This document shows, piece by piece, positions 34,896-63,948 of a stretch of 64,000 nt of DNA. The stretch lies in assembly GCF_004010195.1 (NCBI RefSeq), contig NC_057742.1, forward strand, positions 3,297,084 through 3,361,083. The letters run 5' to 3'. The stretch comes from Chiloscyllium plagiosum. Its lineage: Eukaryota. The notes beneath the pieces were generated by a model. That model ran no database searches, was not told where the DNA came from, and saw only the letters and a list, made by a program, of their open reading frames with translations. A program made the position numbers and the translations under genes. Numbering within the stretch: position 1 is the stretch's first letter; every line of letters begins with the position of its first letter.

Positions 34896-34979
34896 AACTG
34901 GAGTAATTCAGGCAGTTTCTTGTCACTGCGATCAAACAGAAGCCCAACAACATGAAACTACCTAAGTCACACAGCAGTT
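34896..34979 (-). ncRNA. mir196a: mir-196 precursor (mature miR-196a-5p at 34943-34964)
   Basis: Exact reverse complement of UAGGUAGUUUCAUGUUGUUGGG, with a pairing 3p arm at 34908-34928 and a basal stem AACUG/CAGUU. It sits at the canonical position between Hox9 and Hox10. Confidence 0.97.
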
Positions 34980-38702: not shown

Positions 38703-40815
38703 CTGTCAATCGGGAAAAACACATTGTCAAACGACCTATAGAGTAAAATAGATTCTGTTTTCCTCCCTTTCACCACCAATGACTCAGGAATTGCAAAAAG
38801 GTATCCCGACTGAGAAGGGGGAGGGTTAGGATTTTCGGCACATAGTCAGCTAGGGGAATATGAACACTCCATATTTTATCCTGCTTCGTATTAGCGTATG
38901 GTATAGAAGGGTGTTTCACGATGGAGCATTACCTGCTTGATTCAACTTTAGGCCTATATAACAGTTTCGGCAACTGTACTCAAAGGAATATCATGTACCT
39001 GGACAAATACCAGCGGGAGGGTCTAATTAGGTTCATTATAAGGCATTTTCACGAATGCACGTGGCACTAAAACTTGATTCCTAACAATACAGAGATGAAG
39101 GTAATAGAAGAAACTATTACGGACAATACATAATACATTACGGACAATCCCTTTGATATTACAAAAAGACACGATGGTGCCTAAAGCTTTATTTCAAAAA
39201 CAGCATTATGTTTAAAACACAGCTAATTTAGTTTGCAATGAAACACAACCTAAACTAAAATTCAAATTAATAATGGTAAAATTATGTTAAAAGTGTGAGT
39301 AACTGGTTTAAAGTAAGCATATTTATTTTCTACTGCATCCAGGAAAGTGCATGTAAACACTTGTTAACTTTCCAGAGACAATGTTTTATGCAACGACCTT
39401 GCTGAGTACAGTTTTAGAACACATTTGTTACATGCCACATAACGGTTAACCCCGGTATAAAAGCTTTTATTCTGACTTTATCTCCAAGGTTCTGGTTTAT
39501 GCAAGGAAGGGAAAACAGTTGTGAGCTGAGGACAATAAAATAGAACCATAGGTCCAACTGTTTTAAACAGGAAGTCATCAGGCATTTTATAAGGCTTCTC
39601 CACACTTCTCATTTTATTTTTTTTTCCCTGACAGTCTAGCATTCCTTTTGCTGGAGTGGATGCAAGCAAATGACACATTCTAATGCAATTCATCGTCTTA
39701 TTGTGAATGTAGGGATGCAATGCTCTATATTGATCTCTTTCTCCATAAGATTTTAGATTTTTAAATAGTTTCTCGTTATAAAAATAATATTATCTCTGAG
39801 GTGAACGCCTTTATAGTATTAGTCGAATTTAGTTGCTTCCACCAACGTTATTGCATCATCCTAAAATATCATGCACCAGAATACATCATTGACAAAAAAA
39901 AATCAATATATTCAACCTGTAGGCACAATACCACAGTCGCTCGACATCTTTACAGTCTATCGTGGCAAAATACAGGTATTTGACTTTCTCGGGCACTAAA
40001 ACATGTCGTTTCGTGAAATCCGACAGTTACAATAAAACTGTAGCATCTTCTTGTTCAGTGAGCCGAATAGCCTCCATCTGTGCTGCAAGTTTTCCATATC
40101 TCTAAAGTAACTCGATTGCAAGTGCAGTTATCCACTAACCATTTAAGATTACAGCATTGATGTAATTCCATTAATGCAAGTTACACCCTTATACAGTTCT
40201 TGATTTTATGGAAAAGGTCCAAAGTCATGGAATATAAATCAATATTACATATTCAGTCATTGTAAGCTTATCAGCATGCAGATATAACAACACTCACAAA
40301 GAAACTGCTGATATAGAGTTAAAATATTCGGCGTGTGTGGTGCAGGGGATAGTTCCTTACTGACCAAATTTCAACTGGCTGAGCTGAAACACGCGAAGAA
40401 TATCTGAGTATCACTACTCAACGACTCTGTAAATGGAACAAAAACAGAAAATGCTGTAAATAACTCTGCAGTTCTGGCGGCATCTGTGGAGAGGGGTACA
40501 GAGTTAACGTTTTCAGGTCGTGACATTTCAACAGAACGAACTGAAATGTTAACTGTTTCTGTCTCTCTCTACTGAGGCTGTCAGATCTGCCGTGCATTTC
40601 GCCATTTTCTGTTTTTCTCATGGATTTACTGTTTTGAAAATATTTTGCTTTTGGTCTCTATATAAATATGGACTGGCCACGTTTTTGTTTACAACTCTAG
40701 GCATTATTATACGGACACGATTTGCCATTAAGTTGTGTCGACACTATTTGCCAACATCCCAGTATTCAGCCGTATATTAGGAATGTTTCCCGCGTCTGTT
40801 TTGGTCATCCAAAAA

Positions 40816-41242
40816 CATTGCAGTTAGCATCAAACAACAATGGGATACACAAATGATGTATTGTTATGCAAATCTGGAACATGTTAAGCACACGGCTAAA
40901 CTTTGAATTTGAGGCCAAGTATTGTAAGGAGGCATAGTTTGTCCATTGTCCCTCTAGATTTCGAGGGACCATCTTAGACTTTGAATAACCTTAGAACTGG
41001 GAGAAATACACTATCAATTCCATTCTTGTCACATCTCTTAAATGTAAACTGCAAATATGAGCAACGATAGAAATTATTGATAACTCTCAGACTAAATTAG
41101 AAGCATGCACCGAAACCACAGATACAGTAATTTTGGATTGGCAAAGTTTACTTAAATAGACTTGGTTGGAGACTTTTATAATTAACAAAATTCCTATGTA
41201 GCTGTGAAATCTCTGCTAATTTATTCTGAACAATAGATAGAT
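40816..41242 (+). repeat. Long inverted repeat, left arm (Hoxb10 intron)
   Basis: Aligns to the reverse complement of 42262-42687 over ~427 bp. About 45 differences by manual count (just under 90% identity). Confidence 0.95.
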
Positions 41243-42261
41243 AAAGCATTTATGTGATATAGTTATGCAGTTGAAAAGATAGGTTGTGGTCAAATAAGTA
41301 AAATCAGGAATTTTATGTATAACGTTCTCCTTTCAGCTGCCTACCGAATGCATCAAAGATCCAAAACATGGGCACCTATGTAGTAAGCAGTCTGAAATCA
41401 CTCCAGATTTTTCCAATAGTTTGTATGAGATGTTACAATGTCAGTTTGTGTTTCTTATTATATGGGTGCAAATTGTAAACTCTACTACATTTTCGATTCA
41501 AATGTTATGTGTTATTTGGTTGTCGCCCCAAATCAGCATGGAAACATGCTGAATCCGTGGATTCGTATGAACTTAAATTACAGACAATTACACAACAAGT
41601 TTCAGGTGACCCTCACAGGGATATCTTGCAAGAAACACAATACTATATTACCTGAGGTTCAGTTCAAATAATAAAGTTCAAATTTGCACTACATTTTCAG
41701 GCATAGTGCTAATATTTGCTGATTAAAACAAGCCAGTACTATGCTGAAAAGTCGTATTTTACAACTAATGAGTGAACCCTACTCTTGAGTTTATGTTGCC
41801 ATTGTTATTATTATTTCATAACAAAATATATATTGCACATTGAAACGGTGTAGAAATTACTAATATCTAGGAATCACAATTAAGGAAGTCGCGTAACTTG
41901 TACTTTGTTAGCTACAAGTTCAATTTTAAAAATAATCAAAACCCCAATCTATTTTCAGGCCTCCATCTCAATTAGCTACTTTGTCACGTTATTGGGTTCT
42001 TTGTGTGAAGCTGACGTTACTTCAATGCAACAAAGATGGCGGAAGCATTGTTGTCGTAGTATGCAGTTTTTATCCTAACGCTTTTGACATCTATGGAAAA
42101 GGAAATTCTATGGAAGTCAAATAACCCCCAGAAATTGGAGAAATTAACTGATATGTAATGGAGAACAGACTACATGTAGTTAGAAAGTGAGAACTGCCAG
42201 ATAGATAGAACTAAATAAAATTTATAATCGACCTGATGGAATCTTTCTCACAGATCAGATA

Positions 42262-42687
42262 ATCTATCCATTGTTCAGAATAAATTAGCAGAGATTTCAC
42301 AGCTACAAAAGAATTTTATTAATTAAAGAAGTCCCAAACAAGTTTATATAAGTAAACTTTGCCAATCCAAAACCACCATATCTGATGTTTAGATGCATGT
42401 TTCTAATGTAGTCTCAGAGTTATCAATAATTGCTATGATTGCTCCTATTTACAATTCACATTTAAAAGATGTGAAAAGAATGGAATTGATAGTGTATTTG
42501 TCCTAGTTCTAAGGTTATTCAAACTCTGAGATGGTCCCTGGAAATCTAGAGGAACAATGGACAACTATGCCTCCTTTACAATACTTGACCTCAAATGCAA
42601 AGTTTAGCCGTGTGCTTAACATGCTCCAGATTTGCATAACAATACATCATTTGTGTATCGCATTGTTACTTGATGCTATCTGCAATG
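42262..42687 (-). repeat. Long inverted repeat, right arm (Hoxb10 intron)
   Basis: For example ttgttcagaataaattagcagagatttcacagctac is the reverse complement of gtagctgtgaaatctctgctaatttattctgaacaa in the left arm. Confidence 0.95.
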
Positions 42688-44423
42688 CCCTTGTTTGTGT
42701 CATTTAATTGTGTGGTTAAACACTCAGTAAACCAGTGCTAGATAGACAGAGTTCCCTTCACTTCAGCACATTTACGTTGATACCACAAAGACACACAAGC
42801 CAGTAGAAATTAGGAAACAGTCACTGGAGCAGTTTGGGGTTGCAATTTAATTTACAAAGGAATTTGCCGGCTTATAGGCAACTAAAGTGGTTATATATTG
42901 CAATGTTTCATTATTTTATGTGGGCCAGTGTAGGTGGAGGAAATCCGTTATGGCGGATCAGAGTTAATTATAACTTCCTTCGTATTACTGCATCCTGGTG
43001 TTTACCACTGCTTTCGCCTTGCGTAGCAGCTCAGGATTTTGTTGGGTGTTGGGCGTGTGTGTGGGGGGGAGGGGGGGGGCGCGGGGGTGAGCGGAATTTT
43101 AAAAGTACGTTTTACCGGAGAGTACAGGAGGAGCATGGTTTATTGCTTACTCACCTACTAGACAATAGCCAGTCTCTGAAAGAATCGGCGATAACTCTTG
43201 CGACATTCGTCGTTTTTCGCAAACGTTGTGTTAGAATCAGCTCACAGCTAGAGTGCTATTGGAATCTTAGGTACCTACCAGGAAATAACATTCGGAGTAT
43301 TTTGGATTACAAATTAGCATGTCGGTTCAATTTATTTGCCCCCGTGGTTCTTTTATTCCTAATTTACTGACAGCGAGTTCTCATTTAATACCGCAATCCT
43401 TCTGCAGCGCCGCGTGATGTAATTTTTCTTCGGCGCCATAATCCAGCTCCATGGCAACATATAGACCTTAAATAGATGTCACACGCTGCCTTCAAGCTCA
43501 TTTTAGTTATGTTCAGGATTTGGAATTCACAATTTAATCTTGCAAATTGTTTAGATGAATGAACCAATCGATGGAAGACTGCCTGGGACGCTTAGTACAT
43601 TCACCATCAGACTTAAATCTAACACATCAATACCCACAATTGTTCACTGAAAATATCATTGACCACCAATGCAGATGTTTGCATCATAGCTCCAAACTCT
43701 GATTTCATTCTAAATGATATTCTTCAGTGCAGGTTTTTTTAATGAATACATGACTATTTAATAGCGATCCCTGTAATTCTACCCACAACATTTCTCTGTA
43801 TGTGCAAAATAGATGCGTGGACATATTTAACAGATCCATTCATTTTGGTCGTCTCTGAGTATAATGTAAGCATACATGGGTAATGTACATGTAAACTCAT
43901 ACGATGAAATTTTAATGGTGTAATATGTTTGCAATTTGTGCATATTTGTATACATTGTGATTACAGATTTTGCGGTCATGAAATTATTTAGACATATTAA
44001 CAAACATAATTGCATGGTTTTTTCTTACTAACATAACTGTTTTATGTTAATGTCATGTGTGCTTAATGTCATTGCAATTTTATGTTTTCTCCTTAAGCAT
44101 GTCTTGCGCTTGGCATTCTTTTTTGCATTGGTCAGTTGTTTCTATTTTGTGCCGGGCTGTCCTGCAACTAAAGAGTGGCTTTCGGAACAGTTTTGATCCT
44201 TAAAGGTCCTTGAAACGTGTTTGCAATTTACTCTGTGGTATGGGGTCTATCCTATAAATTACTGAAGGTATTAATTTGAACTGAGGGATTTTTGTCTCTG
44301 GAGACGAAAAAATATCTCCTTTATAACCTAATTAAAGTCACCTTGCCGCAGATGAGAGAATTTCCTAGGTTCCTGCTCCAAATGCCATGTCATTGTCTTC
44401 CTTTCGTTCAGGATCTTACCCAC

Positions 44424-45156
44424 CTTTTACTTCCTTCTCAGGAACGGGTTTATCCGCGCCAGGAAACTGTAACTTTGCTGTTTCTTGTGTAAACGTGCTT
44501 TCTCTTCCCCCTGTGTTTTTTCCCGGGATTCCGCGACTCGGCTCTTTAGAGGCGCTCACTTTTAGTTCTTTTTCACCTGGTTTTGAAGAGGACGACGTGG
44601 CGAAGGAAGAAGTGAAGGGAATGCTGGAGTGAATCGAGCACGGAGCAGTGGCTGGCTGTGGTTGGCTGTAATCCGTCGGTTTGTTTGATGAATAACTCGA
44701 TTCTGAACGGAAATAGCTGGGCATGGGCACCCTGCCACTGCCATTTGTGCAGAGTTCAGAAATCACCCTCGGGTAGACTGAAACCTCGGAGTGCGTCTTC
44801 GAATATTTATCCCCGCCTAATAAACAATAGTTCGCTTCTTCCTTCACGCTGGACGTAAAGGAGTAAGTGTTTATCTGTTGGAGCCGGGCTGTGTGGTTGG
44901 AGGGTGACGGGTTTGCCCACCCGGCCATGCCTGGCATGCCAGACACGTACTGATGTGGAACCAAACCTATACCTTGCTGGTTGTTCATCTCCCCTTGTTT
45001 ACGGTGTGCTAGGCCAACTTGCCAATTCTGTACCCCGGAGCCCTGGTCCGCTCTGGACGACAAATAAGCCCCAGGACAGTAAGATTCAGTCCGTCTGGAG
45101 CAAATTAAAGACTTCACTGAAAACGAGCTGGAAGTTGAATTCTCCGAACATGACAT
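44424..45156 (-). CDS. hoxb10: Hoxb10 exon 1
   Basis: Begins MSCSENSTSSSFSVKSLI and includes the Hox10 motifs YSFTSSVKEE..YCL and VPMPSYFR. Phase-1 donor AAAG|GTGGGT. Exons of 733+272 nt give 334 aa. The intron is 5721 bp. Confidence 0.9.
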
Positions 45157-46107
45157 AGCTGCAGCTTAATTTGCTGAGCAGGGGGAAGGGGAAAAAGAAA
45201 GGTCTTTATCAAACTGACATTTCACTTGCACTCTTCAGAAGCCGGCTGTAGACTATTTCCGCCCAGCCGGCCAATCAAACTCGCGGCTAACCCGATAGAC
45301 ACCGCCTACTTCACGGGGGTTTTGAAATGAGAAGAACATTGATGCATTTGTGGGACTCAGCAACACCTAGTTATAGTGACAAATACAAGCTTGTTAATTT
45401 AACTTTTATCAGCCAAATTGGAGACAACTCCCTACCGCTCCACACATACACGCTAACCAGTTCAACTTGCTGCTTTTTTTTGTGACAACGTGGAACAGAA
45501 CAAGATTTTCATTTGTAATTTCTTTCAGACGGGTTGGCGACAGCAGGAACGCTAGAGGAGCTCTGAGTCTTTTTCATGTTCAGTTTTGTGATAACCAATG
45601 ACTGAAGTAGTGATTCAATGTAAATAAGGAGAAGTCTGAAAGCGTCATTGTAAATTTACTTTTAGCCTTTAAGAGGTGAAAATACAGTATCTCCAGAAAT
45701 AACCACATATATAATTAATATATAAATATATACATAGAATATGCTAACTTATCGTTTCAGTAGTTCAGTGACAATAGCATCTTCCAATCGGACTTAGAAC
45801 CAGGAAAAAAATTCCGGCAGTTGAATATTTATTTTGCATGGACACGGACATGGCTTTGAAAGTTTACACTTGTACTATTTGCCAATGGCAGCATTTTCTA
45901 TCTAATGATAATTCCAGGAGTGGGAGATCGACGACTTCTAAATCCATAAGGGTCCATATGGTAATCATTTAAAGCAATACTGTATGAAGCAATACTGCTC
46001 AAATGACTTGAAACAAAGCAAACTGATTTAACCTTTGGTCTAACTTTTCTCTCTTGGCCTGCGTTGAATTAACGCAATGGAATCAAGATTCAAAGATTAC
46101 TGTACTT

Positions 46108-46196
46108 TCTGCTTTCTCTCCACAGATGCTGCCAGATCTGCTGAGATTTTCCAGCAATTTCTGTTTATGTTGCTGATTTTCAGCATCTGCAGTTCT
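46108..46196 (+). mobile_element. Short interspersed repeat fragment, probably Penelope-type terminal repeat remnant
   Basis: tctgctttctctccacagatgctgccagatctgctgagattttccagcaatttctg...cagcatctgcagtt is homologous to 63368-63454 in this window, where it follows a hammerhead-like motif. The family assignment is inference. Confidence 0.7.
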
Positions 46197-49100
46197 TCGG
46201 GGGGGGGAGCTTTGAAAACATAATTTTATTTCACATCGATACACACTTTAATCCGTTCAATTAGCTATTAAAATAGCAGCTCGGTTTAATCTATTTATGC
46301 TATTTATCGTTTATCGAACCAGTTGTTACCGTATATTTTCAACAGTAGGAAATGAACTTCGTTTTTATACCACAATAGCTCTGCTACGTTCTCTGGCTTT
46401 ATTTTTTTATCAAACCTCTTACGCATTGTGTTCACCGTTTGAACGTCAAAACGAGTAGTTGTGTATCTATGTAGTTTTTATACTTAAAACCTGCCATATC
46501 TCTTTATTTTACGAAAATTTGTTTCGGAGTGTTAGAGAATCGAGTACAAGGAAGTAATCAAACCAGGGAATTGGCTTTTCTTTCTAATGGAAACGCGGAT
46601 ATTATATGTGATGCAAAGTAAGCAGAGACGTTATCTGCTTCAGAGCAAGGAATCTCAAGCTTGCAGTACATTTGTCCACATTTGGGCAATTGTTTCGCCA
46701 TTTATCTATAGCCATTAAATTAGACTTTATGCACCCCTGAGGTTTTTCAACTGGGATCAAATCTCCTATAAAAACACGTATTTGCAATAGCAGTTGAGTT
46801 AAACTAGCGCCGTTTTTAAAGAAAAGCAGAACTACGTAAGTTGGCTTTTTCCCGAGAGTAAAATACATTTTCTCTGTCAAATTCAGGCAGAGACGCAGGC
46901 GCAGTAAAAAAAACTGTATTAACAAAACATAAAATATTAACTTTGAAATACTAGCCTCTGCGGAATTTCGCGGACTCAACTGTAAATATATAAGAACAAA
47001 AAATGTTTAACTCTGACGATGACAGTTAGGAACATTTTTATTGACAACTAACTAAGTCATTAACTTACAGATTTGATGGTGTTGTTCTTTTCAACCTCAA
47101 TTAAATCTGTTTTGGTGACTAACGTTAATTCTGCGCACATTTTTAATCCTCTGAAAGTAAAGCCAAAGAATCAGCAATGTGAATTGGAAATCCAATCCAA
47201 TATGTTCCAGCTTTTATTGAACACGTCTGCAAGTGCCGCTTTCGCACCACTAAACGCCCCCAACCAGCCCGAGAAATATATCAACTAAAGTGAAATGAAA
47301 GCAGTTTTGTGTGAACAAGTGGGCTTCACTACTATTCATAAACCCGTAATATTTCAGAGCAACAATAGGAGATTGTAACATGTTATTGCCACGTGAACGT
47401 GACACGCGTGGAGAGGATTTTCTACCCCGAACTGCAGCAATAACTCTCCAGAAATGACTGAGCCACTGGTGTAAGAGAATAAGCAAAAGGATTACCCCGG
47501 CTCTTGCTTATAAGAAGACCCTGGGTAGCCGCGTGGAACAACCTAAAGCGCGGTTCATTGTATGTGAGAAATGGACAAGATTAAAGGACTGAGGGTGGAT
47601 TTACACACATGAACACATTATAGACTAGGATTATCGCAATATCTGAGTAAAGATCATCAAACCAAAACTTTGGACACTAACTCCCAGCAAAGCGTTTCGA
47701 TAGCTGCTATTGGCGTCCCAAACCAAACAAACAGAAAGCATAAATGCAAGATCCAGAACGATATACGACACTGCCATATTATATACAAAGCTCTGAACAA
47801 GAGTGCAGCCCATGGTACGTATAGCTGCAGTCAGAAAGTTCATTAACATACTGTTCATTGTATAAACACACCGGCACAATCTTGCATCATTGTTTTGTTA
47901 GACAGTTTATTGCGGTCAAATTTTGTAATCTAGTTTGAATGGAAATTGGACATGCGCTTGCACTATCGAAAATGGCTTTGTTAGTAATTGAAGTTGTTGT
48001 TCCCTTTTTTTTATTTAGGATGCACTACTACAAACCTAGGGATTTCGATCCTTTTGGTGGAATTTTGCATACAATGGATTGAGATTTCTTTTATTTATGA
48101 ACAGTGAGACAAATGAATGGATAAGTAATATGATTATAATGATGATCTGTGATTAATTAGACCCCCACAGCTCAATACTATTCTGTTAGTATACTTAATT
48201 TAGAAAAAAGTCCTTTCCTGTGAACTTGAGCGTCATTCATCTACGTCGGCCTGAGCCAAGCATTTCGGTTCAATTTGTCTATAAGCGCCCGGTGAGCAGG
48301 CAAAATATATGGTACAACGCCAAAAAAAACAACACAGACTCATTTTAAATCACAATATTCATGTTGTGCCTCCTTCGATAAAATCCTTGGGGATTTTAAG
48401 TTTTTAAAATAACAAACTTCAGAAAAAGTGCTGAACAGACTTAGGTTTGTGTGAATTGTGACTCGTGTGCATCTACTTTATCGTAAATTAAGGTTGAGAT
48501 TTACAATAGACCCCATGCCTCTTTTCGAAATTCGAAACTCCAGATATTAGGGGTTAATGATAAGAATTGTTGCGCTGATTAAAAACAAAGAGACAGAACT
48601 GCGTGCGGCATAGCATCTGATGCTGGTGCCTGCTCGGTGAAAATAGGCCATGTATTTTAAATCAGGTTTATACATCTAAATTGACAGCACCTTCAGCAGG
48701 AATCCTTTACAGTGATTGTTAAATGGATGAATTACAATCTCAACGCTGAATTTAAGAGAAGAAACATTTTTGAATGGGTCACATTATTTTTCGAGATTCC
48801 ATATAGGGTTCAGTGGCGGCCAGTTAACAGACCATCACCGGGAAGGGGGGAGGGAGAGGAGGTGGGTAGACGTTACGACACTTATTGCAAAATGGCGACA
48901 GAACTCTGACTGCCTTGGAGAAAATTATGTAACAACTGACTTATGAAACTCAACAAACATTAATTTCTGATCTGTGATACATGAACAATAGATTGGGATT
49001 CAACAATGAATATCTAGTTCCAACAGTAAACAGAAACATTTTCCGAATTATCCTTGCAGGTGTCATAGTTTCGCATACCATTTATCCTTCAAATTCTAAG

Positions 49101-52976: not shown

Positions 52977-53396
52977 ATTTTAATATTCAATATTTAGGAA
53001 TTATATATCTTCAAAAATTGGAAATTCCTGCTCAAATTTCCTAATTATAGAAGCAATATTTTTTGTAGATCGCTCTGGAAAATATAAATCACCACTGTAG
53101 TTCTCAAAATCTCCACGCGAGGGCGGTGTTGTTTCACAAATAAGCCGAAAAAGACCTTGGCCTTTAAATCAAAAAACCTATGTAATATTTTAATATTCAA
53201 TATTTGGGAATTATATATCTTCGAAAATTGGAAATTCCTGCTCAAATTTCCTAATTATAGAAGCAATCTTTTTTGTAGATCTCTCTGGAAAATATAAATC
53301 ACCACTGTAGTTCTCAAAATCTCCACGCGAGGTCGGTGTTGTTTCACAAATAAGCCGAAAAAGACCTTGGCCTTTAAATCAAAAAACCTATGTAAT
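52977..53396. repeat. Tandem duplication, 2 x 210 bp
   Basis: taatattcaatattt...aaaaaacctatgtaat recurs at 52981 and 53191 with about 5 substitutions. Confidence 0.97.
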
Positions 53397-59290: not shown

Positions 59291-61665
59291 TTTTCCCAGA
59301 CAGCACTGTTAACAAGAAAGCACATCACAAGAACGTTAACTGTTAATCTTGCGAACATAACCAAAACCTTATTTTGGTTGTGTACAAATTCTGTAACTTG
59401 TCCCCTCTATATTCCCCTTCCACCCCTGAACCAGTTATCAGAAAGTTGTGCCGCTTGTCTTACAAATTGGAGGAAAGAGAGCATTGTGCAATTTGTAATT
59501 CTATTTATGCTAAATACTTAAAGTAGTGAAGATTACTGGGAATTGGTTGAAATCGTGCATCATTTATGCCGGAACCCAGAACAGCCAAATACTGGACCAA
59601 TTTAATCTTTCATTCGATTGTTATGAAAGGTAGAAATTAATCTTAGACATTTAATTGCATTTCATAAGCACCATCTTCCTCAACCCCTTTCCATCCTCGA
59701 CATGACAAATTCTGACTACTGCAAATGTTGACTAATATGGGCTGTGAGTCTGGTTTCAGTCTGAACTTTTTTTTGTGATTTAATTTCTTAAGAATGAACC
59801 TTGTAAAATTGTGACGTCAAATATTCTTGTTATACAATGGAAAATCCAGTTATGAATCTGGAACAGATATAGTAGTGCAAAAATCTTCAGGATGATTCAG
59901 ATTATGAATCAGAAATACTCACTGAAACAGAATCAAACGGTGTTTAAGTTTTAGTGCAAAAATCTGGTATGCACTTTGAAGATCTTTGAATGAGCAAAAC
60001 TATGTTTTGCCTGGCAGGAGCATGGCAGTAAGTTATTAGAAAAACAAATTTCAACTGAACAGTCAACAAATATTCATTACTAAGTGTTACACATTGTAGC
60101 ATGTTCCAAAAGGCGCCACAACATTAAATCCATGAGACAGATCTCATAATGAAAATCTATGTAACCACAGAAATTATCGAACATAGATTAATAATTAAGA
60201 AACTGTCCCCCCCCCCCCCCCCCCCCCCACCCCGTCCCCCGCGTTTCTCTTGACAGTGATCTGTGAGATTGTGAATCACTCAAGTTCCTGGGCTCAATAT
60301 CAACTGGCCTGGGAGGTAATGGCACATTCCTCCTTTTGATACAATAATCTGTTTATGTCACAAAGTGTACCTGATGTGCCCTGTTTTCATGACTGAAAGC
60401 ACTCATATTAAAGCAGTTAATGTGAAAACAGTGATAAAATGCCAGCAACTCCATGAATGTTTAACCTCAAAGTGCATAAGGAACGTTCTGTGTCCTGATC
60501 TAACTTCTTGAATGTCTCCTTCATCTTTTAACAGCAGGTTCGCAGACACAATTTCAGCTCACTAAGGCGAATAATTGATTGAGAAAAATTGGTATATGAA
60601 CTCTCAAAGAATTACGAATAATATTTCAAAGAGAAATAGAATATATTTAACACAAAACCTACTTGGCATAAATTACAATTAAAACTCTTGAACTGCAGGA
60701 ATCAATTTGGTAATTGGCTGTATTAGACTTCTTCATTGTTTGTTACAATTGTGTGCCCATGCATAATGAAGTAGGTCCATCAAATATATTTTTAAAATAT
60801 ATTGTTCATAATCTGTTTGCAATTCCAAGATATTACCTGGACAAAGGATCCCTATTCACTGCAGTCAGGTGAAATTCATATTCTGACCGGCTGGAAAACC
60901 TTAATATGTCTGAGAATATAATTATTGTGTCTTTTCACTGGTGTTTTCGAAACACATGAGTAATACTCCTATAGTTCACGATTTGAGTCCCAGCTCATCG
61001 AAGTGCATTACATTATATCAGGATTGTCTACTTGGTAATTTTAAAATGCACTTTTGTATATTGCAGAGTTGAAAACTTGTTTCTGTAAGTATTATTAAAG
61101 TATGATCCTTGAACAAGAAGTGTATAGAAACCACCGCACAAGAAAGGCCAACAGACGTATGATGGCAATTAAACCCCACATGGTGGACTCACTTTTTCCA
61201 CTCAAACTCATGTCTGTTCCCCAAACCACTTTGTCTGATATATTACATTTGACCTTAAAATCAACAATGCTATCTGCTTCAGCCTGTCCATGTGGCAGCG
61301 AAATCCAGATCCCCACCATTTGTCTTGTAAAGGCTTGCTCCTAGATTCTTTATCCCACCTGTTAGTGTGTGTTCTTTTCTGCCTAAGCTCACAAGGAAGA
61401 TCCTTTTTAACACCCTAATTGAAGTTTCCAATTCTTTACCAATCTCATTTAATTCTCAGATTTTTCTGAGAATTAAATTCAGTGTTCAAAATCACCTAGA
61501 AGGTATGCATTTCCGATTGCAAAAAAAAACCTCTATATCTTTTCTGAACGTTCTCAATTGTTGCATTATGGGAATCAGATTTCCATTTTCCAAATTTGAT
61601 CTAACAAAGTTTCTATATTAATTCAAAAAAATTCTATTCTATTCTTGTATCTATTATTCTCCAAT

Positions 61666-61974
61666 GCACACAATACTTCATATATAATGTTTGTGGTGCT
61701 ATGAACCTGTTTTGCCACTTTAGTGATCATGCATCTAGTATTTCTTCAATTATTTATTACATAGCTCCATATTTATTATCCTTTCACAAAACTGTAGTCT
61801 CCTTTTTTCACCTACACAAAGCACACAATACTTCATATATAATGTTTGTGGTGCTATGAACCTATTTTGCCACTTTAGTGATCATGCATCTAGTATTCTT
61901 CAATTATTTATTACATAGCTCCATATTTATTATCCTTTCACAAAACCGTAGTCTCTTTTTTTCACCTACACAAA
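61666..61974. repeat. Tandem duplication, 2 x ~155 bp
   Basis: gcacacaatacttcatatataatg...ttcacctacacaaa occurs at 61666 and 61821 with about 4 differences. Confidence 0.97.
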
Positions 61975-62725: not shown

Positions 62726-63003
62726 CTCTCCAAGTCAACTATTGTAACAATATGAATTTTTGTTGGACTTACATTGCAAAATAGACGACTGCATCTGTGT
62801 ATGGTGCAAAACGTGCCTGCTTCCTGTTCTTGCAAATCTAGATAAGATTGTACAAAACAAAATCAGAAATTGTTGGGAAAACTTAGCAGGTCTGGCAGCA
62901 GAATTAACCAGTGACCCTTCTTCAGAACACTTCTGCAGACTCTTCTTTAGAATTAGGAAGGCATACTTTCTAGGTAAGTTCTGAAGAAGGCTCTCTGGAC
63001 CTA

Positions 63004-63345
63004 TGATTTGGAGGTGCCGGTGTTGAACTGGGGTGTACAAAGTTAAAAATCACACAACACCAGGTTATAGTCCAACAGGTTTAATTGGAAGCACTGGCTT
63101 TCGGAGCGCTGCTCCTTCATCAAGTGGTTCTTATTCTATTTTATGTTTGAGGGGTATGCTGTGCTGATACTGCTCCTGTTTTCAGTGTGCATCAAGACCC
63201 AGTATTCAAAGGAAAAAAATGCAAACCAAACAATTAAAATTCTGAATTTAATACAAATTTGGCAACCACCTGATGAAGGAGTGGCACTCCGAAAGCTAGT
63301 GCGCTTCCAATCCAACCTGTTGGACTATAACCTGGTGTTGTGTGA
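63004..63345. mobile_element. Insertion with inverted Penelope-type terminal repeats, flanked by a 12-bp direct repeat
   Basis: Inverted arms at 63049-63129 and 63264-63345. TCTCTGGACCTA is duplicated at 62992-63003 and 63346-63357. The internal 63130-63263 matches 63674-63808. Confidence 0.85.
63264..63304 (+). ncRNA. Candidate minimal type I hammerhead ribozyme motif
   Basis: Reads CAC-CUGAUGA-A-GGAGU(GGC)ACUCC-GAAA-GC-UA-GUG. This gives both core boxes, a 5-bp stem II, a palindromic AGCU helix III and a CAC/GUG stem I. Confidence 0.7.
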
Positions 63346-63948
63346 TCTCTGGACCTAAAACGTTAACTCTACTTTCTCTCCACCGCTGCTGGCAGACCAG
63401 CTGAGATTTTCCAACAACTTCTAATTTTGTTTCTGATTTCCAGCATGAGCAGTTTTTAATATACCTAACAATGATTGTCTGATAAGGAAATTATAATCCC
63501 CCAAAACCTCAAAATTCAAATAAATTGCGAAATGAGGAGGAGAAAGGTGATGGTTTATAGCTTTGTGTCCCTACATTGGAAAATATTTATTTTACTCAAT
63601 TAGTTGAAGTGTTCTGCTGAAAAAAGTTCAAATTCTTACTGTTAACTCAAGGACGAGAATAGATAATATTCTTCTTATTCTATTTTATGTGTGAGGGGTA
63701 TACTGTGCTGATACTTCTCCTGCTTTCAGTGTGTCTCAAGACCCGGTATTCAAAGGAAAAAAATGCACAATAAACAATTAAAATTCTGAATTTAACACAA
63801 AATTTGGCGAGCAGTGTAAAAGATTCTTTCAGGCAATAATTATCTTTCATGATTGGAAAAGAATTTTTTTCTTGTCAAACGATTTTACCTTTCGGTACTA
63901 TTGCAGTCAGTCCAAAATTGTTAATAAACTTCACATTCTCCCGAATGT

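What the first reader, a model, noticed from the sequence alone, without database searches (positions are those of the whole stretch)
63130..63808. Mobile element has captured a copy of DNA from ~550 bp downstream between its inverted arms
Seen: the 134 bp between the inverted arms (63130-63263) is a same-orientation diverged copy of 63674-63808. Its boundaries coincide with the inner ends of the arms, with a 2-nt TT microhomology at the left junction. Inference: local DNA was templated into the element during insertion (template switching), producing an arm-cargo-arm cassette. If general, this is a route for local micro-duplication next to a Hox cluster.
Basis: partly seen in the sequence, partly recalled or inferred. 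Interest (0 to 1): 0.7.

Follow-up and report, generated by a model that had tools for sequence, protein, structure and literature searches.

The report
Penelope fold-back carrying copied neighbour DNA
An old, dead jumping-gene insertion in a Hox-bearing vertebrate genome region holds, between its two mirror-image halves, a 134-base copy of DNA from a few hundred bases away, most likely a patch made while the insertion was being sealed; it is real, but a variant of known repair errors.

Summary
Observation confirmed. 63130-63263 matches 63674-63808 on the same strand (123 of 135 columns) and fills the gap between two inverted arms. Removing it restores an older repeat, so the cassette is most simply one insertion, 316-451 bp from its donor. 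Raw reads give depth about 44,000 on the arm and 0 on the cargo, and the family continues with other sequence, so the cargo is neither a repeat nor consensus. A contig from another species holds arm plus whole cargo; no record spans the cassette and no empty site was seen. Best reading (0.55): both target ends were reverse-transcribed, and one cDNA end copied nearby flank before joining the other (microhomology 2 nt and 1-3 nt). Main rival (0.25): repair of a broken palindrome centre soon after insertion. Flank-templated filler is described for LINEs and host capture for rotifer PLEs. This scan noted similar cases elsewhere in this genome (unchecked). Generality untested; no sign of Hox relevance.

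The parts
62992..63003 (+). Target-site duplication, left copy (12 bp; first base also fits the arm end on the right side)
   Evidence: Longest exact word shared by the two outer junctions, 12 nt at 62992 and 63346; chance of 12 matches at fixed positions 1.2e-7
63004..63048 (-). One-sided 'tail' of the left arm, absent from the right arm
   Evidence: Arm alignment stops at 63049; family copies end in two clusters, 63003/63004 and 63037-63042, against unrelated AT-rich flanks (table 7)
63049..63129 (-). Left arm: end module of a Penelope-like element with a hammerhead motif mutated at two core positions
   Evidence: matches only the relaxed hammerhead pattern at 63123; read depth about 44,000 at 63037-63079
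63130..63263 (+). Cargo: 134-bp same-orientation copy of 63674-63808
   Evidence: raw-read depth 0 in bins 63166-63251; organism C contig (record 7) covers 63100-63270 with 8 other letters and no gaps
63264..63346 (+). Right arm: same end module, no tail, with an intact minimal type I hammerhead pattern (core starts 63270)
   Evidence: Only strict hit in the 64 kb window, 0 hits in 30 shuffles
63346..63357 (+). Target-site duplication, right copy
63674..63808 (+). Donor: single-copy DNA embedded in unique flank
   Evidence: Organism C record 8 runs unbroken 63356-63927; organism B records cover 63417-63741 and 63743-63930; raw-read depth 0
62978..63460 (+). Older repeat interrupted by the cassette (62978-63003 plus 63358-63460), with a decayed hammerhead-like stretch at the insertion point
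   Evidence: With the insert and one TSD removed it aligns across the junction to the copy at 40427-40519; another copy at 46108-46197. It does not pass the hammerhead pattern; its PLE label is by eye
62855..62928 (-). Inverted partner arm of the older repeat; 49-nt spacer 62929-62977 has no local source
   Evidence: pairs I2, I5; spacer best local score 28, 9 of 40 shuffles reach it

Best explanation
One integration event of a Penelope-like retroelement. Shown: 12-bp TSD, two head-to-head arms whose inner ends fall on the same nucleotide (within 1 nt), a tail on one arm only, a direct copy of downstream flank between them, short microhomology at both inner junctions. Inferred: staggered nicks 12 nt apart left two 3' ends; each was extended by the element's reverse transcriptase on the end module of its RNA, one from the tail start and one from the inner start. 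The two cDNA flaps have the same sequence, so they cannot anneal. The left flap's 3' end (TT) primed on the exposed bottom strand of the downstream flank 316 bp past the cut, was extended 134 nt, let go, and annealed by C(AA) to the tip of the right flap; fill-in and ligation sealed it. The copying enzyme is not identified (host repair polymerase or the element's own enzyme on DNA). The product is a dead, neutral fossil older than the split of organisms A and C.
For: TSD and intact older target. Arms are a very abundant family with two outer end clusters 34-39 nt apart, like the 30-40-bp PLE tail (PMC8557442 passages). A lizard PLE protein cuts and extends both strands and has two RT start sites that define the tail (PMC11167929). 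Cargo is not family consensus and not repeated. Cargo/donor and arm/arm divergence are equal within error. Four of the 12 cargo/donor differences vanish when the letters shown for organism C are used, as expected for a copy that drifted. Direct orientation is what copying from the opposite break end gives, whereas snap-back gives inverted copies (PMC5068794 passages). Flank-templated filler is reported at LINE 5' junctions (PMC4245944; PMC4760211), and three L1 insertions carried genomic DNA templated near the site (PMC11702581).
Against: One locus. Microhomology is weak: joint chance 0.01 with the ancestral right junction, 0.08 with today's. A 134-nt copy primed over 300 nt from the end is atypical of polymerase theta in worms, where inserts are mostly under 25 bp and about 85% prime within 10 bp. 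Equal divergence cannot separate 'during' from 'soon after'. Head-to-head PLE junctions have also been explained by self-priming (PMC3846280), which would not give two independent flaps.
Confidence: 0.55

Rival explanations
1. The element first landed as a near-perfect palindrome with no spacer. The centre then broke as a hairpin or cruciform, and repair copied 134 bp from the downstream flank into the break, which stabilised it.
For: Both arms end at the same nucleotide within 1 nt, as in a perfect palindrome. Perfect palindromes break at the centre and short spacers stabilise them (review PMC8701086 passages). Same orientation and microhomology are expected. Head-to-head joints without listed letters between recur at other loci, e.g. 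37 reads for 63122-63263.
Against: That review reports 93% of 118 centre rearrangements as deletions that break symmetry; here the arms stay symmetric. Needs two events with no measurable time between them. The joints without a spacer are asymmetric.
Confidence: 0.25
2. The reverse transcriptase ran off the 5' end of its RNA and jumped to a nearby RNA (a transcript of the bottom strand, the strand of the Hox genes) or to a free DNA fragment, copied 134 nt, and was end-joined.
For: All six homeobox exons found are on the minus strand, which is the sense such a template needs. 'Extra template' junctions are described for R2 (PMC11331408 passages) and template jumps were proposed for rotifer PLEs.
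Against: No RNA run was examined and no transcript of the donor is known. The donor lies within 0.5 kb of the site, as resection-based copying predicts and a diffusible RNA does not.
Confidence: 0.13
3. The arm-cargo-arm unit was assembled elsewhere and mobilised whole (PLE transduction of host DNA), or the cargo is itself a repeat.
For: Rotifer PLEs move host DNA between pLTRs with TSDs (PMC3846280).
Against: Cargo depth 0 against about 44,000 on the arm; family sequence past 63129 differs from the cargo in the consensus of 5,324 reads. Only one other copy in the window. Landing 316 bp from the donor by chance is improbable (inference).
Confidence: 0.04
4. Assembly artefact.
For: No single read or contig spans the cassette; raw reads of run X19 do not cover the cargo, though under one read was expected for an assumed 3-5 Gb genome.
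Against: Cargo and donor differ at 12 of 135 columns. A different species in a different study has the left arm, whole cargo and 7 nt of the right arm in one contig, and a separate contig through the donor; outer junctions are seen in another study of organism A and (left only) in organism B.
Confidence: 0.02

Closest known systems
Endonuclease-positive Penelope-like element insertions with inverted pLTR, one-sided tail and TSD (Arkhipova 2013 PMC3846280, main text read; Craig 2021 PMC8557442, passages; Frangieh 2024 PMC11167929, main text read)
   Same: Head-to-head inverted end modules, tail on one arm, TSD of similar size (8-10 bp there, 12 here), minimal hammerhead in the end module.
   Different: No ORF in this copy. 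The inverted junction holds 134 bp of host DNA from under 0.5 kb away; the parts of those papers that I read describe no local donor at the inverted junction.
Host DNA captured between Penelope pLTRs in Adineta vaga (PMC3846280)
   Same: Unrelated host sequence between pLTRs, whole unit flanked by a TSD.
   Different: There the best case is a gene between direct pLTRs, copied to a new location; donors of the other cases are not located. Here the donor is adjacent and the cargo sits between inverted arms.
Flank-derived extra nucleotides at LINE 5' junctions (PMC4245944, PMC4760211, passages) and L1 insertions with locally templated genomic DNA (PMC11702581, passages and part of the Fig. S10 legend)
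   Same: DNA next to the insertion site is copied into the junction that seals a retrotransposition event.
   Different: Different element class. Here the filler joins two cDNA ends rather than cDNA to target, and is far longer than the 'several' nucleotides described for zebrafish LINEs.
Polymerase theta templated insertions (PMC5068794, passages)
   Same: Direct-orientation copy from the opposite break end, with 1-3 nt microhomology at start and end.
   Different: Length (134 nt) and priming distance (over 300 nt) are far outside the usual range reported there; no deletion of flank.

Membership tests
Penelope-like element (EN+ PLE) insertion | RT plus GIY-YIG endonuclease ORF in the family | not testable with these tools
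   This copy has only end modules; no genome held; collection scans gave no true relatives. Clade not assigned.
Penelope-like element (EN+ PLE) insertion | Minimal type I hammerhead in the end module | tested here: met
   Right arm matches core plus stem I and stem II pairing; 1 strict hit in the window, 0 in 30 shuffles. Pattern is my own, from recalled core residues; Rfam gave no hammerhead hit. Cleavage not tested.
Penelope-like element (EN+ PLE) insertion | Inverted 5'-truncated copy, head to head | tested here: met
   similar joints at other loci (table 5).
Penelope-like element (EN+ PLE) insertion | 30-40-bp tail at one end only | tested here: met
   Family end clusters 34-39 nt apart; this copy's arms differ by 45 nt, the right arm being 7-12 nt shorter than the inner cluster.
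Penelope-like element (EN+ PLE) insertion | Target-site duplication around the whole unit | tested here: met
   12 of 12 identical; empty site inferred from paralogous older repeat, not seen in any run.
MITE / DNA transposon with terminal inverted repeats | Arms end symmetrically at the outer boundaries, with a fixed internal sequence | tested here: not met
   Outer ends differ by 45 nt; the internal sequence is not shared by the family.
Non-LTR retrozyme | Tandem direct repeats each with a hammerhead (10.64898/2026.07.22.740005, part 1 of 5) | tested here: not met
   Arms are inverted; no tandem array at the locus.
Polymerase theta templated insertion | Microhomology at both ends and direct copy from the opposite end | tested here: inconclusive
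   2 nt and 1-3 nt, joint chance 0.01-0.08; orientation fits.
Polymerase theta templated insertion | Short insert primed close to the break | tested here: not met
   134 nt, 316 bp from the target against under 25 bp and within 10 bp.
Polymerase theta templated insertion | Genetic dependence on POLQ | not testable with these tools
   Needs an experiment.

The most novel reading that the evidence does not exclude
Because a PLE extends both target ends with same-sense cDNA, many of its insertions can only be sealed by a templated bridge, often copied from DNA within about 1 kb. With on the order of 1e5 arm copies (genome size assumed), this family would have left thousands of dated local micro-duplications, and their distances, sides and orientations would read out the unresolved second half of PLE integration in vivo.
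Probability: 0.3. Interest if true: 0.62.

Novelty: new variant of a known kind. Interest (0 to 1): 0.38.

Why it matters
How PLE insertions are completed, and why they form inverted structures, is described as open in the papers read. A locally copied bridge at the inverted junction fits two independent cDNA ends better than simple self-priming, and makes that question testable from genome data alone. As one neutral 134-bp fossil about 18 kb from the nearest putative Hox exon it has no shown function.

Tried and rejected
Genome-wide test: no genome held. Collection scans for relatives: 0 hits in viral contigs and in the first metagenome scan; 4 hits in the second and 1 in prokaryote genomes, all 5 matching only over 19-21 nt and taken as chance. 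Rfam: only mir-196 at gathering score; 7 weak matches at the locus, none a hammerhead, all far below gathering. Other inverted pairs in the window: the older pair's 49-nt spacer has no local source, the pair at 40427-40616 has almost no spacer, and the 1,019-nt spacer of 40816-42687 has no match in the window; so 1 of 4 inverted pairs examined has a local donor. Plain tandem duplication: rejected, homology stops within 2-3 nt of the cargo ends. Cargo as original and donor as copy: rejected, the donor has no element ends and runs on in unique flank. Two RNA templates for the two arms: the arms differ by a 2-nt indel whose two states both occur in the family (loose ends at 63094 and 63302), but slippage explains it too; inconclusive. 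Unconstrained folding did not give the hammerhead fold for the right arm. Look-ups of earlier notes by sequence and nearby place gave nothing. Print searches showed no paper on a local donor at a PLE inverted junction; subscription papers such as Cervera and de la Pena 2014 and Kajikawa 2012 were not seen, and supplements were read only for PMC11702581 (passages).

Full report
OBSERVATION. The segment 63130-63263 aligns to 63674-63808 on the same strand with 123 of 135 columns identical: 11 mismatches (6 transitions, 5 transversions) and one gap column. Its local score is 208, against a maximum of 30 in 200 shuffles. It fills the 134 nt between inverted arms that end at 63129 and start at 63264. 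Homology to the donor stops within 2-3 nt of those ends. The TT microhomology at the left junction is real.

A 12-bp word occurs at 62992-63003 and again at 63346-63357, at the two outer junctions, so the 343 bp between the copies are most simply one insertion. With the insert and one copy removed, the flanks join into an older repeat that aligns across the junction to a paralogue at 40427-40519. Measured from that target, the donor lies 316-451 bp downstream, not 550. The arms match at 74 of 83 columns, and the left arm has 45 extra nt at its outer end. The right arm holds a minimal type I hammerhead pattern with paired stems I and II, the only strict hit in 64 kb, with none in 30 shuffles; the left arm has two core changes. 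The pattern is mine, built from recalled core residues; Rfam found no hammerhead. Both arms begin 6-7 nt before the core, at what I read as the outer edge of stem I.

PUBLIC RUNS. I laid 4 of the 24 listed runs. Raw reads of organism A (X19, 1,934 million letters) give depth about 44,000 at 63037-63079, about 5,400 on the right arm, 1-4 on the left unique flank, and 0 on cargo and donor bins. Past the inner end at 63129, 5,324 reads continue with a consensus unlike the cargo (agreement 0.64). Family copies end in two clusters, 63003/63004 and 63037-63042, against unrelated AT-rich flanks. An organism C contig covers 63100-63270 with 8 other letters and no gaps, and another runs unbroken through the donor (63356-63927). 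Outer junctions appear in another study of organism A (62900-63031, 63321-63506) and in organism B (62916-63025). The tables were truncated (196 difference rows and 1,143 joints not shown), so what follows from them is partial.

AGE AND DIRECTION. Cargo/donor mismatch (11 of 134) equals arm/arm mismatch (7 of 81) within error, Fisher p = 1.0. Organism A differs from C at 5.4% and from B at 3.6% of letters in the listed local records, so the insertion is somewhat older than the A/C split. Four of the 12 cargo/donor differences vanish with the letters shown for C. B and C have A at donor 63809, which extends the right-junction microhomology from C to CAA if A at 63810 (organisms A and C) is ancestral. 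The joint chance of the two microhomologies is 0.01 on that reading and 0.08 on today's sequence: modest support.

WHAT IT IS. Inverted 5'-truncated copies, a one-sided 30-40-bp tail and hammerheads in the end module are described PLE features (PMC8557442, passages; PMC6155905, passages; PMC3846280, parts 1-4 of 5). I file the arms as PLE end modules on those features; the ORF could not be tested. That the host is a shark comes from earlier scan notes and my recall, not from a test. The window holds six homeobox exons on the minus strand (three of them sent to Pfam, all three hit Homeodomain) and mir-196. The label HoxB5-B10 is recalled. The insertion is about 18 kb beyond a putative Hox10 first exon at 44416-45165 (no Pfam hit).

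MECHANISM. Best reading, 0.55. A lizard PLE protein cuts and extends both target strands and starts at two sites that define the tail (PMC11167929, parts 1-2 of 4). Applied here (inference): the two 3' ends, 12 nt apart, were each extended on the end module, one with and one without tail. Two same-sense cDNA flaps cannot anneal. The left flap primed by TT on the exposed bottom strand of the downstream flank, copied 134 nt and re-annealed by C(AA) to the tip of the right flap. Direct orientation is what copying from the opposite end gives (PMC5068794, passages), but the length and distance are atypical of polymerase theta in that study, so the enzyme is open. Main rival, 0.25: a spacer-less palindrome broke at its centre soon after insertion and was patched; the symmetric inner ends fit this, while the deletion-dominated outcomes in the review read do not (PMC8701086, passages). 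A jump of the reverse transcriptase to a nearby RNA or fragment gets 0.13 (PMC11331408, passages; no RNA data examined). Transduction of a ready-made unit gets 0.04 and artefact 0.02.

COMPARISON AND NOVELTY. Flank-derived filler at LINE 5' junctions (PMC4245944 and PMC4760211, passages), three L1 insertions with nearby templated DNA (PMC11702581, passages and part of a supplement legend) and host DNA between rotifer pLTRs with TSDs are in print. Eight searches showed no paper on a local donor at a PLE inverted junction, but much subscription literature is not held. My reading was written before the look-ups. Earlier scan notes on other pieces of this genome describe similar cases, 143 bp from 1.3 kb and 236 bp from about 1 kb; they are unchecked AI notes and only a lead. 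Within this window 1 of 4 inverted pairs examined has a local donor.

VERDICT. Real, well-formed, old and probably neutral: a new variant of a known kind. Interest 0.38. It would deserve about 0.6 if the genome-wide test shows local bridges to be a regular product of PLE integration (probability about 0.3).

Noticed in passing
joint 63094 to 63287 (other loci of the family): 59 reads from 43 starts show a fold-back in which one arm begins exactly at the hammerhead cut site predicted by my pattern and joins the other arm inside stem II. It may be one amplified sub-family or repeated use of the cleaved RNA.
   Followed up: no
window 62855-62928 and 62978-63460: The target is itself an older inverted pair with a 49-nt spacer of unknown origin; the young cassette landed in its decayed hammerhead-like stretch.
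   Followed up: partly
window 40427-40616: A third, older inverted pair of the same old family with almost no spacer.
   Followed up: partly
window 40816-41242 and 42262-42687: 428-bp inverted repeats, 89.5% alike, around a 1,019-nt spacer with no match in the window and no open frame over 84 aa, between the two putative Hox10 exons.
   Followed up: partly
window 63154 and 63698: Organism C has A in both cargo and donor at this aligned column where organism A has G in both (B donor G): gene conversion between the copies or a parallel change.
   Followed up: no
window 63091-63092 and 63301-63304: The arms differ by a 2-nt indel whose two states both occur among family copies; it may mean two RNA templates, or slippage.
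   Followed up: partly
window 61662-61974 and 52977-53396: Two young tandem duplications of non-coding DNA, periods 154 and 210 bp, 96-97% alike.
   Followed up: no
window 34900-34973 and 2936-45165: mir-196 and six homeobox exons on the minus strand; my homeodomain motif found no further exon between 38769 and 64000.
   Followed up: partly
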